This document shows positions 2,684 through 27,927 of a stretch of DNA of 29,483 nt, piece by piece. The stretch comes from an uncultured Acidobacteriota bacterium. GTDB taxonomy: Bacteria > Acidobacteriota > Blastocatellia > Pyrinomonadales > Pyrinomonadaceae. Below the pieces are notes generated by a model. It did not search any database and was not told where the DNA came from. It saw only the letters and a list, made by a program, of their open reading frames with translations. The translations under genes and the position numbers were made by a program. The stretch spans positions 1 to 29,483 of the forward strand of contig CADEEU010000003.1 in NCBI GenBank assembly GCA_902826385.1. The letters are read 5' to 3'. How positions within the stretch are numbered: the first letter of the stretch is position 1; every line of letters begins with the position of its first letter.

Positions 2684-3553
2684 CTAGTTCGGAAGCATGT
2701 CGAAGCCCGAGCCTGCGTGACATCGTTTGCAGTTGGCAAAATCGGCGTCGCCGAAAGCTCGAACGTTGTTGTGGCAGGTGGCACAGCTTGTTCGATTGCC
2801 GTCGGCTTTGCGATGACCGTGTACGAGAGGCAATGTAACCTGGCGTGATTGCGGAGCACGAGCAACAATATCGTGACACTCGTTACAGGAAACTCCTTGG
2901 GCAGAAGAATGAGATGCGTGGCTGAAAACCGCACGGAATGCGTATCGCGATTGCGGCGTGCGGCTGTAGGGGGCGAGTTCGTGACAGACGTTGCACGAAC
3001 CGATCTTGCTCTCCGGCGTGTGGCAGGATAAACAATCTGCGTGAGCACTTATCCCCGCGGGAATCGATTTAGCCGCACCGGCAGGTGAATGACACGCAAC
3101 GCAGCCGTTACGCGGCTCGGCGGCCCCGCGTGAGTGAACAGCGTGGTCGAACTTCATATTAAAGCCTTCTGAAAACTTTGCGGGAAATGCCGCAACCGTC
3201 GGCGGCGATACATTCAGGTCTTGATGACAAATGGCGCACATCTTCGGCTCTTGCGACGTGAACTGATTTAGATGACAGCCAATGCACGAATCGTGTCCGG
3301 CGTATTTCAATTCCATCGAAACCTTCAACGATCCGGATTCGCGTTGGTGGCAGGAATCGCAAGCGAAAGATTGATGCTCGGGAATGCGGTGAGAGAAATT
3401 TTCAAACGTTTTTTGCGAAGTTCGCACTAACGGAGGTTCGGGCGTTTCCAACGAGGTGATTGTCGGCTGAAGACGTTCGCCCTTTTGAAGGCACGATGCA
3501 ACAAAGATCGCGAATACGATTGCGAGAATGCCTTTCTTTAAGAATGTTTTCAT
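2684..3553 (-). CDS. Nonaheme cytochrome c lipoprotein (three c7-like triheme modules)
   Basis: Start reassigned to ATG 3553 (MKTFLKKGILAIVFAIFVASC, lipobox-like VASC). Nine motifs: CDSCH, CIGCH, CAICH, CVACH, CLSCH, CNVCH, CNECH, CATCH, CKRCH, in triplets each preceded by F[S/D]H..H. Confidence 0.88.
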   Translation of the reverse strand: MKTFLKKGILAIVFAIFVASCLQKGERLQPTITSLETPEPPLVRTSQKTFENFSHRIPEHQSFACDSCHQRESGSLKVSMELKYAGHDSCIGCHLNQFTSQEPKMCAICHQDLNVSPPTVAAFPAKFSEGFNMKFDHAVHSRGAAEPRNGCVACHSPAGAAKSIPAGISAHADCLSCHTPESKIGSCNVCHELAPYSRTPQSRYAFRAVFSHASHSSAQGVSCNECHDIVARAPQSRQVTLPLVHGHRKADGNRTSCATCHNNVRAFGDADFANCKRCHAGSGFDMLPN

Positions 3554-3588
3554 TAACGCGGTTTGTTGGCCTGCTTCATTCCATCCAC

Positions 3589-4611
3589 TCAATTCTGATG
3601 GCTCGGCGGAATCGGGAACCTTCCGACCTCGGGCGAATGGCAGTAAATACACTGAAACGTCGGTTTCTTTTCCTCCAAACTCGCCTCCCGTTTTCCGATC
3701 TCTTCGCGAATCACAGGTCCGTGGCACGAACTCGTGCTGCACGTCAGGATAGGCACGTCCGCATCCTTCATCTTTGCTATGTCGGAGTTTTGCGCAATTC
3801 GGACGTGACAGGTCATACAGTCTTTATTGACGTGGTTTTTGCTCAAGTGATCGAACTTTATCGAATACCGGCTGATTGTGTTCGAATCGAAATACGGTGT
3901 CGTCAATTTATGACAACCCGCGCAATCAGTACGGGCGGGTTTTTGATTTTGATAATGACACGTGAAACAGGACGCATGCGAGTTCGGCGAATCTTTGAAA
4001 AAACCTGCAGCGGGCAGAAACGCTCCGGTCGCTGCTTCGACAAGCGGCTTCACCCCAGCTGAAACACGCGGGCCGTATTTTGGAAGTTTTTCCGTCGTTT
4101 TATGACAGATCGCGCAGTTATTGAATTCAGGCGTTTTCGGATCGTCTGCGGATCGAAAATTAGTCGGAACAAAATGGGCGACCACAGTTTCCGTTTGTTT
4201 GACGTTCCTTGCGATCAAATCCTGATGGACGTCGTGAGGGAAAACAATTGAAAATTCCTGCGAACGGGAACGAACGGGAAACGGAAATCTGGCCGCACCT
4301 CGTGGGCCGGGATTCGTGTGACAACCCGCACAGATCGCCGGTCGGTTACCGCTGAAAAAATCGCGGCGGTGACAATTGATGCATGATGCATGGCCCGGAA
4401 AGTCAGCGACGTCCGGATAGCCGCGAGTTGAAACCCAATTGGACGTCGGAACTTTGTGGCATGAACTGCAGTCGATCTTTTTGTGTGAAGCAGAGGCGTG
4501 CGAGAACCCTTTGTCACGCCGCTGGGCCGAAGCCGGGTCGGACGGACCGAGAAACATCACGGCCGCAGCCGACGCAAAAAAAGCAAAAATGAACAAGACG
4601 CGAAGTTTCAT
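3589..4611 (-). CDS. Nonaheme cytochrome c (three c7-like modules; 8 CXXCH plus 1 CX4CH), Sec signal peptide
   Basis: ATG 4611 overlaps the upstream TGA (ATGA). Motifs CSSCH, CINCH, CAGCH, CAICH, CFTCH, CAGCH, CMTCH, CSTSSCH, CIYCH; signal peptide ends ASA-Q. Confidence 0.88.
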   Translation of the reverse strand: MKLRVLFIFAFFASAAAVMFLGPSDPASAQRRDKGFSHASASHKKIDCSSCHKVPTSNWVSTRGYPDVADFPGHASCINCHRRDFFSGNRPAICAGCHTNPGPRGAARFPFPVRSRSQEFSIVFPHDVHQDLIARNVKQTETVVAHFVPTNFRSADDPKTPEFNNCAICHKTTEKLPKYGPRVSAGVKPLVEAATGAFLPAAGFFKDSPNSHASCFTCHYQNQKPARTDCAGCHKLTTPYFDSNTISRYSIKFDHLSKNHVNKDCMTCHVRIAQNSDIAKMKDADVPILTCSTSSCHGPVIREEIGKREASLEEKKPTFQCIYCHSPEVGRFPIPPSHQN

Positions 4612-24196: not shown

Positions 24197-24264
24197 ACAA
24201 CCAACTTTGGAACTACCGCAAGGACGAGATCTAACGTGTCCGGTTATACTAATACTTGTGGGTA

Positions 24265-26154
24265 ATGTTTGACGAGAAATTTGATGTAATCGTAATTGGG
24301 GCCGGACACGCTGGCTGCGAGGCTGCTTCGGCGGCCGCGCGGTTGGGAGCGCGGACGGCTTTGGTAACGATAAACTTGGACCTGATCGGCCAAATGTCAT
24401 GTAATCCGGCCGTCGGCGGGATCGCTAAAGGCCATGTTGTTAGAGAGATAGACGCTCTTGGCGGAATAATGGGCCGTGTGATCGACCGCACGGGCATTCA
24501 GTTCAGGTTGTTGAACCGATCACGCGGTCCCGCGGTACAGTCGCCGCGTGCCCAGGCCGACCGAAGTTTGTACCGTGCTGAGATGCGCCGGGTTTTAGAA
24601 GCAACGCCCGACCTGCATCTGCGACAAGGTGTCGTTGTCAGTCTAATTGTTGAAAACAAAAGTGTTATCGGCGTCGAAATGCAGGACACACGTCGATTTG
24701 AAGCAAAAGCCGTCGTGATCGCGACCGGGACATTTCTTAACGGCACCATTCACACAGGAAACCAGACATTTTCGGCCGGTCGTGCGGGCGAGCCAGCATC
24801 GATTGAGTTGGCCGAAGCCCTTAAGAATCAAGGGTTTCCGGTCGGACGACTCAAAACAGGGACGCCGCCGAGACTGGATGGCCGGACCATCGATTGGGGC
24901 GCGTTCGAAGCCCAACCGCCGGACGAAAAGCCGGTGGCATTCTCATTTGCTACCGAAAAGATCGAACAGCCGCAAATCCAATGTTTTATTGGGTATACAA
25001 GCGATAAGCTGCATCAGACGATTCGCGACAATTTGCACCAGTCGCCGCTTTATTCCGGCAAGATTAAGGGCATCGGGCCGCGTTACTGTCCGTCGATCGA
25101 AGACAAGGTCGTGAAGTTTGCCGACAAGGACCGGCACCAGCTATTTCTTGAGCCTGAAGGACATAACACTCACGAGGTATATCTAAACGGCTTTTCAACC
25201 TCGCTTCCGTCTGCTTTGCAGCTCGAACTTCTTAGAATGATACCGGGTTTCGAGACGGTTCAGATTATTCGGCCCGGCTACGCGATCGAATACGATTTTG
25301 TGGATCCGCGCGAGCTCCGGTCGACCATGGAGTCGACGCGGATGAACGGCCTGTTTCTTGCCGGGCAAATAAACGGCACCACGGGTTATGAGGAAGCGGC
25401 GTGTCAAGGATTGTTGGCAGGCGTAAATGCCGCATTTTCGGTCCAGGGCAGGAAAGCCTTTACGCTTGGCCGAGAAGAAGCTTATATCGGTGTTTTGGCG
25501 GACGATCTTATCCAGCATGGTGTCGATGAGCCTTATCGCCTTTTCACATCGCGGGCGGAGGCTCGTTTGCGGCTGCGTCATGACAACGCTGATCAAAGGC
25601 TTTCCCCGAAAGGCAGGGACATCGGCTTGGTTGGTGATAATGATTGGGAAAGGTTCAATAGCAGGCGTGACCGGATCGCAAGTCTAAGAAACGTGCTGGA
25701 TGAAAGCAGATTTAAGCGTTCATCGGCAGAATATGCGGGCGTATCGCAGATTTTGGGCCGCGATCTAGGTGACGCGTTCACGCTCTCGCAGCTTTCGATG
25801 CGGCAGGGCGTCACGCCGGAAATTATTTATCGGCTGCTGCCGCAGCCGACGCGGACGTCAATTAATCTCGCCGAGCTCGAAACAGCACTGGCGGACTCGC
25901 TCTACAGCGGCTATATAGCTAAACAGGATTTAGCGACCGAGCGCGTCAATCATCACGATACATTGAAAGTGCCGGAAGCATTCGAATTCGCCTCCATCGG
26001 CGGGTTGTCTAACGAAATGATCGAACGGCTTGAGCGAGCTCAACCCCGCACCTTTGCCCAAGTTAGAAAAATATCGGGACTTACTCCGGCGGCCGTGTCG
26101 TCGGTTCTCGTTCACCTTACCGCGAATAGCCCGGCTAGCTCGTCGAAAAACTAG
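24265..26154 (+). CDS. mnmG: tRNA uridine-5-carboxymethylaminomethyl(34) synthesis enzyme MnmG
   Basis: [41 protein letters not shown] and [14 protein letters not shown]. Confidence 0.98.
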
Positions 26155-26157
26155 GAT

Positions 26158-26173
26158 TGTGGCACGTGCCACA
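26158..26173. promoter_or_regulatory. Putative variant parS site 1 (TGTGGCACGTGCCACA)
   Basis: Perfect 16-bp palindrome with the parS length and CACGTG core, upstream of parA. Confidence 0.75.
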
Positions 26174-26223
26174 TTTAATACGGCCTCACTAAACCCCAAA
26201 AACGGAATTATCGGCTTCACCTG

Positions 26224-26239
26224 TGTGGTACGTGCCACA
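26224..26239. promoter_or_regulatory. Putative variant parS site 2 (TGTGGTACGTGCCACA)
   Basis: 15/16 match to site 1, starting 66 bp downstream of it. Confidence 0.72.
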
Positions 26240-26315
26240 TTCACTGTCGGATCCGCATCACTGATTACAAGTTCAGCGTGGCCGTGTGATAACTTTATAG
26301 AGAGTATTGCTTACT

Positions 26316-27077
26316 ATGGGTCGAATAATTGCAGTCGCAAACCAAAAAGGCGGCGTCGGGAAAACTACGACGGCGATAAACCTGGCTGCGGCCCTGGCTC
26401 TAGAGAAAAGAAAAGTCCTGTTGATCGACGCCGATCCGCAGGGAAACGCAACGTCGGGCTCGGGCATTCAGCGTTCAAACGGCCGAAGAAATCTCTATCA
26501 CGCGCTTATTTCGGGCGAGCCGGTTCGTGATCTGGTATTGCCGACAGAGATCTCGACAATGTGGGTTGTTCCTTCGGACAAGAATCTGGCGGGCATCGAG
26601 ATCGAGTTCAGCGAGGCCGAAAATCGAGCTACGGTACTCCGTGATCTTTTGCGTGAGATAAAGGACTATTTTCACTTCATTATAGTGGATTGTCCGCCAT
26701 CGCTCGGCGTTCTTACGGTAAACGGCCTGACAGCTGCGGATTCGCTGCTCATTCCGGTACAGTGTGAGTATTTTGCCCTCGAAGGTGTAACTGAACTGTT
26801 TGAAACACTTACGCGGCTGAAAAGAGAGCTGAATCCGAACCTGATGATCGAAGGCCTGCTTCTTACAATGTTCGACGAAAGGACAAATCTTTCATCGGCT
26901 GTGGCGAAGGACCTGCGGGATTTTTACGGATCGCAGGTTTTTAATACGGTGATTCCGCGCAACGTGCGTTTGGCCGAGGCTCCGAGCTTTGGCAAGCCGG
27001 TACTGCTTTACGATCCCAGATCGCGTGGAGCCGAGGCGTATATCAACCTGGCAAAGGAGGTCATTAATCATGGCTAG
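26316..27077 (+). CDS. parA: Chromosome partitioning ATPase ParA/Soj
   Basis: ANQKGGVGKTTTA, DADPQGNAT, DCPPSLG, PVQCEYFALEG and IPRNVRLAEAPSFG. Confidence 0.97.
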   Translation: MGRIIAVANQKGGVGKTTTAINLAAALALEKRKVLLIDADPQGNATSGSGIQRSNGRRNLYHALISGEPVRDLVLPTEISTMWVVPSDKNLAGIEIEFSEAENRATVLRDLLREIKDYFHFIIVDCPPSLGVLTVNGLTAADSLLIPVQCEYFALEGVTELFETLTRLKRELNPNLMIEGLLLTMFDERTNLSSAVAKDLRDFYGSQVFNTVIPRNVRLAEAPSFGKPVLLYDPRSRGAEAYINLAKEVINHG

Positions 27078-27927
27078 ACAATCGCTCGGCCGAGGATTGA
27101 GCGCTCTTCTGGGTGACGAGAGCCCGAAAGACAACGTAATCGAACTCGGCATCGAGCAGATAGTTCCGAATTCGGAGCAGCCACGGACGCGTTTTGAAGA
27201 GTCGGCGCTGGAAGAACTTGCCCAATCAATTAAGGCAAATGGAATCGTCCAGCCGATCGTGGTCCGCAAAACGGACGGAGGCCACCAAATCGTGGCTGGC
27301 GAACGACGGTGGCGGGCTGCGCAAAAGGCAGGCCTGCGACGCGTGCCGGTCGTTGTTCGTGAAGTTACGGATGAAAAGCTCCTCGAGTTGGCATTGATAG
27401 AGAATATTCAGCGTCAAGAGCTAAACCCGATCGAAGAGGCTCGGGCATTCCGCAAACTTATTGATAATATTGGTCTTACGCAGGAAATGGTGGCGGAGCG
27501 TGTGGGTAAAGAGCGGTCGCTGATAGCGACTTCGCTTAGGCTTCTCAAGCTTCCGGATGAGGTGCTGGGCTTTATCGAAGAAGGAAAAATATCCGCCGGG
27601 CACGGACGTGTCCTGTTGATGGCCAACGATTCCGCGACGCAACGGCGCGTCGCAAAAACCATTGTTGCGATGTCACTGTCGGTCCGCGAGACCGAGAGGT
27701 TGATAAAAAAATCCGGCACATCAGAAAAGCAAACTACTGATACTAAAAGGGTTAGTGGTCAGCGAGATGCCAATTTGATATCCGCGGAATCAAAGCTGCG
27801 GCGCAGGCTTGGGACGAACGTAAACATTCTTCCCTCCAAAAGCGGCGTCGGAGGGAAAGTGGAGATTGAATATTATTCCATGGATGATCTTGACCGCGTG
27901 TACCAAGCCATAATAGGAGCTAACTGA
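27070..27927 (+). CDS. parB: Chromosome partitioning protein ParB/Spo0J
   Basis: LGRGLSALL, QPRTRF, the CTP motif GERRWRAA, ENIQRQELNPIEEA and an HTH; the start overlaps the parA end by 8 nt. Confidence 0.97.
   Translation: MARQSLGRGLSALLGDESPKDNVIELGIEQIVPNSEQPRTRFEESALEELAQSIKANGIVQPIVVRKTDGGHQIVAGERRWRAAQKAGLRRVPVVVREVTDEKLLELALIENIQRQELNPIEEARAFRKLIDNIGLTQEMVAERVGKERSLIATSLRLLKLPDEVLGFIEEGKISAGHGRVLLMANDSATQRRVAKTIVAMSLSVRETERLIKKSGTSEKQTTDTKRVSGQRDANLISAESKLRRRLGTNVNILPSKSGVGGKVEIEYYSMDDLDRVYQAIIGAN

What the first reader, a model, noticed from the sequence alone, without database searches (positions are those of the whole stretch)
26158..26239. Two non-canonical parS-like palindromes (TGTGGCACGTGCCACA) just upstream of parAB
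Seen: one perfect and one 15/16 copy of a 16-bp palindrome in the mnmG-parA spacer. Established: canonical parS is TGTTTCACGTGAAACA and lies near parAB; the sites here keep the length, ends and CACGTG core but have GG/CC for TT/AA. Inference: a lineage-specific centromere that standard parS searches would miss. I recall an acidobacterial ParB being reported with shifted specificity but cannot verify that its site matches this one.
Basis: partly seen in the sequence, partly recalled or inferred. Interest (0 to 1): 0.65.

Follow-up and report, generated by a model that had tools for sequence, protein, structure and literature searches.

The report
Lineage-specific parS centromere with co-evolved ParB
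The two palindromes upstream of parAB are very probably this acidobacterium's chromosome centromere (parS), re-spelled from TGTTTCAC to TGTGGNAC half-sites together with a change of a normally invariant DNA-reading asparagine in its ParB, which makes it a rare natural case of a reprogrammed bacterial centromere.

Summary
TGTGGCACGTGCCACA lies at 26158-26173 and TGTGGTACGTGCCACA at 26224-26239, between mnmG and parA. They are the only such sites in the 3.69-Mb MAG (Acidobacteriota, Blastocatellia, Pyrinomonadaceae). No canonical parS was found at up to 1 mismatch.

The sites are most likely a diverged parS, for five reasons.
- About 100 related genomes carry 1-2 copies of TGTGG-N-ACGT-N-CCACA at the same place, typically ending about 66 bp before parA.
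- Sister Blastocatellia families carry canonical parS at that same position.
- A one-contig relative has only two sites genome-wide, both upstream of parA and 33 kb from dnaA.
- The ParB residue equivalent to Caulobacter N178 (a base-contacting Asn) is N in all 19 loci that keep a TGTT(T/C)CAC half-site. It is T in all 95 loci without one, including this window (T154). It is N in 148 of the 150 nearest ParB cluster representatives.
- One congener has A178 plus G201A and a private palindrome, TGTGAATCGATTCACA, found only upstream of its parA.

Binding is inferred, not shown. I found no paper that reports the motif. This is a new variant of a known kind.

Side finding: in about 8% of congeners the palindrome sits at the centre of dispersed MITE-like repeats.

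The parts
26158..26173 (.). parS-like site 1, TGTGGCACGTGCCACA (perfect palindrome). It starts 158 bp before the parA ATG and 4 bp after the mnmG stop.
   Evidence: The orthologous position holds the same motif class in relatives and canonical parS in sister families.
26224..26239 (.). parS-like site 2, TGTGGTACGTGCCACA (half-sites TGTGGTAC and TGTGGCAC). It starts 92 bp before the parA ATG and lies 66 bp centre-to-centre from site 1.
   Evidence: A two-site arrangement is the commonest in relatives (56 of 86 distinct T178 spacers).
26287..26295 (+). TGATAACTT, an extended -10-like element (TGnTAnnTT) 29 bp before the parA start. Probable parAB promoter, downstream of both sites.
   Evidence: The motif is present in the last 70 bp of 80 of 105 distinct spacers, against 3.3 expected from shuffles, mostly 20-45 bp before the start codon. 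Promoter function is inferred. The sigma-70 scan found no full -35/-10 match.
26316..27077 (+). parA (Soj-type ParA ATPase, 253 aa, deviant Walker A KGGVGKTT)
   Evidence: Pfam AAA_31 4e-64 and CbiA/ParA hits; translation.
27070..27927 (+). parB (285 aa). It has the N-terminal LGRGLSALL peptide, the GERRWRA CTP-binding box, an HTH DNA-binding domain and a C-terminal dimerisation domain.
   Evidence: Pfam ParB_N 5.5e-36, HTH_ParB 2.4e-35, ParB_C 2e-8. Best PDB matches are chromosomal ParB/Spo0J structures 7BNK, 1VZ0, 6T1F, 6SDK and 4UMK.
27505..27549 (+). ParB recognition helix GKERSLIATSLRLLK (residues 146-160). T154 corresponds to Caulobacter N178 and H. pylori N164, which is Asn in nearly all other ParBs.
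   Evidence: N178 is listed as a conserved parS-contacting residue in PMC7383237. N164 is listed among the base-specific contact residues in PMC11229316.
24256..26154 (+). mnmG (gidA), the conserved upstream neighbour. The mnmG-parA-parB order is an origin-region gene order.
   Evidence: Pfam GIDA 5.7e-170. Synteny is kept in nearly all related loci examined (mnmG was not detected in one, L034).

Best explanation
The two palindromes are the chromosomal centromere (parS) of this Pyrinomonadaceae bacterium. The adjacent ParB dimer is expected to recognise each 16-bp site through its helix-turn-helix domain, one half-site TGTGG-N-AC per monomer. It would then close as a CTP-dependent clamp, slide onto flanking DNA, and recruit ParA (and probably SMC) to segregate the origin region, as canonical ParABS systems do. 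What differs is the spelling of the site. Positions 4-5 and 12-13 are GG/CC instead of TT/AA, and position 6/11 is unconstrained. The recognition helix carries Thr (T154) where almost all ParB and Noc proteins have the base-contacting Asn (Caulobacter N178). Shown here: the existence, uniqueness, conservation and positional orthology of the sites, and the covariation with the ParB residue. Inferred: actual ParB binding, that T154 is the causal specificity change, and clamp loading and segregation.
For: (1) The sites are unique in the genome and no canonical parS was found at up to 1 mismatch.
(2) Conservation: 84 of 101 genus genomes have an exact TGTGGNACGTNCCACA match, while the reversed control pattern hit only 1 genome. 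In 86 distinct related spacers of the T178 clade, 56 have two sites, and the proximal site ends a median 66 bp before parA.
(3) Positional orthology: nine genomes from eight other Blastocatellia families carry TGTT(T/C)CACGTG(A/G)AACA-type sites, some with changed end bases, upstream of parA; the proximal site starts about 40-225 bp before the parA start. At class level canonical parS is common outside the family: it was found in 74 of 89 genomes of the other families. In the own family it hit 11 of 31 genomes, usually once, about the level of the control pattern.
(4) Intermediates: deeper Pyrinomonadaceae have hybrid sites with one canonical half, such as TGTTTCAC|GTGTCCCA and TGTGGCAC|GTGAAACA.
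(5) Covariation: residue 178 is N in all 19 loci that retain a TGTT(T/C)CAC half-site and T in all 95 loci that lack one. The ParB tree needs at least 3 changes of the residue, and in the two discordant lineages the site type differs to match. L112 has N178 and near-canonical sites yet is nested in the T clade. G046 has A178 plus G201A and a private palindrome, TGTGAATCGATTCACA, present only four times in its genome, all upstream of parA.
(6) N178 is a conserved parS-contacting residue (PMC7383237), and its H. pylori equivalent N164 is one of five base-specific contact residues (PMC11229316). Of those five, only this one is changed in the window's ParB. Among the 150 nearest 50%-identity cluster representatives, 148 have N and only the two closest have T.
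(7) Genome position: in the one-contig relative G047 the only two sites are upstream of parA and 33 kb from dnaA. In four further near-closed congeners dnaA lies 18-46 kb from the parAB locus.
(8) The ParB is a complete chromosomal-type ParB with CTPase boxes.
Against: There is no binding, ChIP or genetic evidence. The assembly is 86% complete and has 537 contigs, so a canonical parS on unassembled DNA cannot be excluded for this genome. However, 4 of 5 near-closed congeners have none. The covariation rests on few independent evolutionary events (at least 3). Which bases N178 contacts could not be read, because the figure was not held, so the causal role of N178T is an inference. In about 8% of congeners the same palindrome is dispersed in 9-66 copies inside MITE-like repeats. 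So the 16-mer can also exist outside a centromere context. GC-skew sampling of G047 was noisy and only weakly supports an origin near the sites. dnaA of the own genome is on another contig.
Confidence: 0.87

Rival explanations
1. The palindromes are only a transcriptional operator of the parAB operon, bound by ParB or by another regulator, and have no centromere role. The true centromere lies elsewhere or is absent.
For: The sites lie just upstream of a probable parA promoter element at 26287-26295. Plasmid Par systems commonly autoregulate through sites upstream of parA (background knowledge).
Against: The sites sit about 50 bp or more upstream of the -10-like element and do not overlap it. 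They occupy the same position as canonical parS in sister families. No other parS candidate exists in closed relatives. Chromosomal ParB nucleation at a site equals centromere function in known systems, so this rival largely collapses into the main explanation if ParB is the binder.
Confidence: 0.06
2. The palindromes are structural or mobile DNA unrelated to ParB: a REP/REPIN/MITE-type hairpin repeat, or the intrinsic terminator of mnmG.
For: Site 1 begins 4 bp after the mnmG stop. In some congeners (G042, G197, G206, G184, G001, G214, G046, G041) the same 16-mer is dispersed 9-66 times within conserved 150-200-bp repeats, often flanked by A- and T-tracts like bidirectional terminators.
Against: The own genome has only two copies, both upstream of parA. 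The local hairpins are no more stable than shuffles (z -0.98 and -0.74) and have no U-tract, and the terminator scan did not call them. There was no Rfam match. A repeat or terminator does not explain the ParB residue covariation or the orthology with canonical parS.
Confidence: 0.04
3. The sites are bound by the second ParB-like protein of the genome (contig C241, next to a second ParA-like gene) and not by the adjacent ParB.
For: A ParA/ParB-like pair exists on G000:C241. Its ParB-like protein has ParB_N and a partial HTH_ParB domain.
Against: It is not linked to the sites. Its helix (KSRSTVTELLAIAGLP) is very different, and no ParB_C domain was detected. It is found in only part of the genus. 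The covariation is with the adjacent ParB.
Confidence: 0.03

Closest known systems
Canonical chromosomal parS (TGTTNCACGTGAAACA) bound by ParB/Spo0J, e.g. B. subtilis, C. crescentus, T. thermophilus, H. pylori
   Same: A 16-bp palindrome with TGT...ACA ends and an ACGT centre. One to a few copies lie next to parAB in the origin region. The adjacent ParB has the N-terminal ParA-activating peptide, the GERRxRA CTP box, an HTH domain and a C-terminal dimerisation domain. The location is the same as that of canonical parS in sister families.
   Different: Positions 4-5 and 12-13 are GG/CC, not TT/AA, so a perfect site matches 12 of 16 positions. The unconstrained position has moved from 5 to 6. 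The ParB recognition helix has Thr instead of the near-invariant Asn178, and usually GHGR instead of GHAR. A standard parS search at up to 1 mismatch finds nothing.
Noc-NBS of Firmicutes (TATTTCCCGGGAAATA), the documented natural specificity switch in the ParB family (Jalal et al. 2020, PMC7383237)
   Same: It is a ParB-family protein whose 16-bp palindromic target changed at two positions per half-site through a few substitutions in the 162-207 region. This is a precedent for the mechanism.
   Different: Noc is a duplicated paralog with a new function, and its switch involves residues 173, 179, 184 and 201 and bases 1 and 6. Here the sole chromosomal ParB itself changed, along with its centromere, at residue 178 and bases 3-5 in Jalal's numbering. 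The window's ParB keeps R173 and G201.
Replicon-specific Bsr-type ParB/parS pairs of Burkholderia secondary chromosomes and plasmids (PMC5450999)
   Same: These are related ParBs with distinct palindromic centromeres and discriminating recognition.
   Different: They serve secondary replicons and plasmids and coexist with a canonical main-chromosome system. Here the primary-chromosome system itself diverged. This paper was seen by title and abstract only.

Membership tests
Chromosomal ParABS centromere (parS) | 16-bp inverted-repeat site | tested here: met
   One perfect palindrome and one 15/16 palindrome.
Chromosomal ParABS centromere (parS) | Match to the consensus TGTTNCACGTGAAACA | tested here: not met
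   12 of 16 positions match. Positions 4, 5, 12 and 13 differ. There is no canonical site at up to 1 mismatch in the genome.
Chromosomal ParABS centromere (parS) | Located beside parAB, in the origin-proximal region | tested here: met
   The sites start 158 and 92 bp before the parA start. In five near-closed congeners the parAB locus, with its sites, lies 18-46 kb from dnaA. GC skew in G047 is only weakly informative.
Chromosomal ParABS centromere (parS) | Evolutionary continuity with canonical parS (homologous position) | tested here: met
   Canonical sites occupy the same spacer in eight sister families, and hybrid half-sites occur in basal Pyrinomonadaceae.
Chromosomal ParABS centromere (parS) | A cognate full-length ParB with HTH and CTPase motifs is encoded adjacent, and its DNA-reading residues track the site | tested here: met
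   Domains. Residue-178 covariation of 19/19 against 0/95, with at least 3 changes on the tree.
Chromosomal ParABS centromere (parS) | Specific ParB binding, parS-stimulated CTP clamp closure, and a role in segregation | not testable with these tools
   Requires EMSA or BLI, a CTPase assay and ChIP-seq.
Noc/NBS nucleoid-occlusion system | An NBS-like site (TATTTCCCGGGAAATA) and the Noc signature Q173/K179/K184/R201 | tested here: not met
   No NBS at up to 1 mismatch. The protein has R173, S179, K184 and G201.
REP/REPIN/MITE dispersed palindromic repeats | Many dispersed copies with conserved flanks | tested here: not met
   The own genome has two copies, both upstream of parA. This feature is met in some congeners only.
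Intrinsic terminator | A stable GC-rich hairpin followed by a U-tract | tested here: not met
   The terminator scan did not call them. Hairpin z-scores were -0.98 and -0.74.

The most novel reading that the evidence does not exclude
Pyrinomonadaceae may be undergoing a centromere arms race. MITE-like repeats that carry the host's own parS palindrome at their centre proliferate in some species, reaching 9-66 dispersed copies. These would create ectopic ParB loading sites. That would select for expanded parS arrays at parAB (3-8 sites in exactly those genomes) and, in at least one lineage, for escape by re-specification of both ParB and parS. That lineage is G046: A178 plus G201A, a new TGTGAATCGATTCACA array, and the old palindrome left only in 10 dispersed repeats. 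Its sister lineage G042 has 66 copies. This would explain why half-site positions 4-6 vary so much across the family (TTC, GGN, AGN, AAA, GTC, and GAA before a TC core) when parS is otherwise nearly invariant across bacteria. The family would also offer a natural series of orthogonal ParB/parS pairs.
Probability: 0.2. Interest if true: 0.8.

Novelty: new variant of a known kind. Interest (0 to 1): 0.62.

Why it matters
Chromosomal parS is described as highly conserved across bacteria (Kawalek et al. 2020, PMC7022226). The ParB residues that read it are described as conserved across about 1,800 orthologs (PMC7383237). A whole acidobacterial clade in which the primary centromere and a base-contacting ParB residue have changed together is therefore a natural experiment in how a one-protein, one-site essential interaction can be respecified without a duplicate copy. 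This complements the ParB-to-Noc case. In practice, parS-based origin and centromere annotation fails in these abundant soil bacteria unless the variant motif is used. The family's graded series of sites and ParBs also suggests candidates for orthogonal DNA-labelling pairs. Finally, it gives a directly testable residue-to-base hypothesis: Asn178 reads TT, Thr178 reads GG/AG/AA.

Tried and rejected
- Sigma-54 promoter (TGGCAC-N5-TTGC): the -12 GC is not at the right spacing. Rejected by inspection.
- Terminator or hairpin: not called and not stable.
- Known RNA family: none.
- Literature search for the motif strings and for acidobacterial parS: nothing relevant. Livny 2007 is not held.
- Base-by-base contacts of N178: these could not be read because they are only in a figure.
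- Independent N178T ParBs outside the clade, as a replicate test: none among the 150 nearest cluster representatives.
- GC-skew sampling of the closed relative: too noisy to place oriC precisely.
- dnaA of the own genome: on a different small contig, so no distance can be given.
- Near-match at window 2770: inside a coding ORF with core mismatches, treated as chance.
- Homology between the dispersed-repeat flanks of G042 and G046: not detected by blastn.

Full report
**1. Observation**

The window holds TGTGGCACGTGCCACA at 26158-26173, a perfect 16-bp palindrome, and TGTGGTACGTGCCACA at 26224-26239, a 15/16 copy. Both lie in the 161-bp spacer between mnmG (24256-26154) and parA (ATG 26316). 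parB follows at 27070-27927, overlapping the end of parA by 8 nt, and then tatA/B and tatC. Dinucleotide shuffles of the window gave a mean of 0.13 matches at up to 3 mismatches, against 3 observed.

The window is a whole contig (C3) of a 537-contig, 3.69-Mb, 86%-complete MAG. Across the assembly these two are the only matches to TGTGGNACGTNCCACA at up to 1 mismatch. Canonical parS (TGTTNCACGTGNAACA) and the Noc site NBS have no match at up to 1 mismatch. Record titles of the closest ParB loci place the organism in Acidobacteriota, Blastocatellia, Pyrinomonadaceae.

**2. Conservation and position**

The mnmG-parA-parB order is conserved in nearly all related loci examined. In 86 distinct spacers of the clade, 56 have two sites, 20 have one and 8 have three to six. 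Centre-to-centre spacing is mostly 24-43 bp, against 66 bp in the window. The proximal site ends a median 66 bp before the parA start.

The half-site consensus in the genus is TGTGG-N-AC. Position 6 is free (C 148, A 117, T 67, G 32), while positions 4 and 5 are G in 90% and 95% of half-sites. Of 101 genus genomes, 84 have an exact match to TGTGGNACGTNCCACA. The reversed control pattern hit one genome.

Across the phylum the motif occurs in 9 of 15 genomes of the own family and in 1 of 235 others. In the single-contig congener G047 the only two sites in 3.39 Mb lie upstream of parA, 33 kb from dnaA. In four more near-closed genomes dnaA lies 18-46 kb from the parAB locus. Sparse GC-skew sampling of G047 shows a minus-to-plus switch between 2.04 and 2.21 Mb, near the sites at 2.019 Mb, but it is noisy.

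**3. Homology with canonical parS**

Nine genomes from eight other Blastocatellia families carry TGTT(T/C)CACGTG(A/G)AACA-type sites, some with changed end bases, in one to three copies upstream of parA. The proximal site starts about 40-225 bp before the parA start. At class level canonical parS was found in 74 of 89 genomes of other families. It was found in only 11 of 31 genomes of the own family, usually as a single hit, about the level of the control pattern. Four of five near-closed congeners have none.

Basal Pyrinomonadaceae have hybrid sites such as TGTTTCAC|GTGTCCCA and TGTGGCAC|GTGAAACA. Other genera use TGTAGNAC, TGTAAAAC, TGTGTCAC or TGAAGCAC half-sites. These are often arranged as two asymmetric sites in mirror orientation. 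The window's palindromes are therefore diverged descendants of canonical parS, not an unrelated element.

**4. Covariation with ParB**

The window's ParB is a complete chromosomal-type ParB. It has the LGRGLSALL peptide, the GERRWRA box, the HTH_ParB domain and the ParB_C domain. Its best PDB relatives are Myxococcus, Thermus, Caulobacter, Bacillus and Helicobacter ParB/Spo0J.

Its recognition helix is GKERSLIATSLRLLK (27505-27549). Aligned to Caulobacter numbering this gives R173, T178, S179 and K184, and later G201 and G203. I derived this mapping by counting along the Caulobacter helix recalled from memory. It reproduces R173, T179, A184 and G201 of PMC7383237. It also matches the five-residue Arg-to-Asn spacing in H. 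pylori ParB, where R159 and N164 are among the residues that bind parS specifically (PMC11229316).

PMC7383237 lists N178 among six parS-contacting residues conserved in about 1,800 ParB and about 400 Noc orthologs. PMC11229316 lists H. pylori R159, N164, K190, R215 and E218 as the residues that bind parS specifically. The equivalents of the other four are conserved in the window's ParB. Only the Asn is replaced.

Across 115 loci, residue 178 is N in all 19 that keep a TGTT(T/C)CAC half-site. Five of those have hybrid sites that my strict filter missed but that one search shows. Residue 178 is T in all 95 loci without such a half-site, and A in one.

On a maximum-likelihood ParB tree N is ancestral and at least three changes are needed. 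L112 has N178 and near-canonical sites (CGTTTCACGTGGAACT) yet is nested inside the T clade. G046 has A178 plus G201A. G201 is described as absolutely conserved in ParB orthologs in PMC7383237. G046 has replaced the array upstream of parA with four copies of TGTGAATCGATTCACA. These are the only copies in its 4.5-Mb genome, and the motif was not found in 100 other congeners.

Among the 150 nearest 50%-identity cluster representatives of 1.84 billion proteins, position 178 is N in 148. It is T only in the two closest, at 67-69% identity, presumably members of the same clade.

**5. Mechanism**

Most likely (about 0.87), ParB dimers nucleate on these two sites, close as CTP clamps, spread, and engage ParA and SMC as in canonical ParABS. 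Recognition has been re-tuned at half-site positions 4-6. An extended -10-like element, TGnTAnnTT, is conserved 20-45 bp before parA in 80 of 105 spacers, against 3.3 expected. In the window it is TGATAACTT at 26287-26295. The sites therefore lie upstream of the core promoter and do not overlap it. That fits a nucleation site better than a classical operator, although silencing by ParB spreading is possible. None of the binding steps was tested.

**6. Rivals**

- A pure operator role (0.06) largely merges with the main explanation if ParB is the binder.
- A terminator or REP-like hairpin (0.04) is not supported. The scan did not call the sites, their hairpin energies are ordinary, and there is no Rfam hit. 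This rival also cannot explain the covariation.
- A second ParA/ParB-like pair on contig C241 (0.03) has a very different helix and no detected ParB_C domain, and it is unlinked to the sites.

**7. Side finding**

Eight of the 101 genus genomes in the census (G042 66, G197 46, G206 33, G184 20, G001 18, G214 15, G046 10, G041 9) have many dispersed copies of the palindrome; a phylum sample added G101 and G125 with 8 each. In G197, G042 and G046 the palindrome sits at the centre of conserved 150-200-bp repeats with species-specific flanks. In G001 pairs of palindromes bound elements of about 121 bp.

The dispersed copies carry the same position-6 variant as that species' parAB array, except in G046. 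Six of these genomes (G041, G042, G184, G197, G206, G001) have enlarged arrays of 3-8 sites upstream of parA. G046 is sister to the G042 lineage on the ParB tree. It has changed ParB and parS while retaining the old palindrome only in dispersed repeats. This suggests, but does not show, a conflict between parS-bearing repeats and the host centromere.

**8. Novelty**

No held paper contains the motif, and none reports an acidobacterial parS. The kind of system (ParABS) is known. The re-spelled primary-chromosome centromere with a substituted near-invariant Asn is a new variant.

The earlier notes of this scan on this window concern other genes and did not bear on this finding.

Noticed in passing
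Relatives G042, G197, G206, G184, G001, G214, G046, G041 (e.g. L150-L164, L170-L175, L135-L145): The parS-like palindrome occurs 9-66 times dispersed in these congeners. It sits at the centre of conserved 150-200-bp MITE-like repeats with species-specific flanks; in G001 it occurs as pairs bounding elements of about 121 bp. Six of them (G041, G042, G184, G197, G206, G001) also have enlarged arrays of 3-8 sites upstream of parA.
   Followed up: partly
Relative G046, L134 (parAB locus; sites at G046:C1:513902-514173): This congener has replaced the array with four copies of TGTGAATCGATTCACA at an 86-bp period, unique in its genome. Its ParB has A178 and G201A (helix RSSVAASMRLL, then AAHGR). The old palindrome survives only in 10 dispersed repeats.
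   Followed up: partly
window 26287-26295 and the orthologous spacers: A conserved TGnTAnnTT element lies 20-45 bp before the parA start codon in 80 of 105 spacers. It is likely an extended -10 promoter element of parAB.
   Followed up: partly
G000 contig C241 (L176:1940-3575): A second ParA-like gene (273 aa) and ParB-like gene (helix KSRSTVTELLAIAGLP, no ParB_C domain) sit between a MiaB-like radical-SAM gene and metK/ahcY. The ParB-like gene is present in part of the genus. Its target is unknown.
   Followed up: partly
Other Pyrinomonadaceae genera (e.g. L056, L066, L085, L099, L109, L111, L123): Here the two sites upstream of parA are asymmetric hybrids, such as TGTGGGAC|GTTTTACA followed by its exact reverse complement. 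The pair therefore forms one larger inverted repeat with the GG-type or canonical half-sites on the outside.
   Followed up: no
window 2770-2785: TGTGGCAGGTGGCACA, a 2-mismatch relative of the palindrome, lies inside a multiheme cytochrome ORF (2684-3742, minus strand). It is probably chance.
   Followed up: partly
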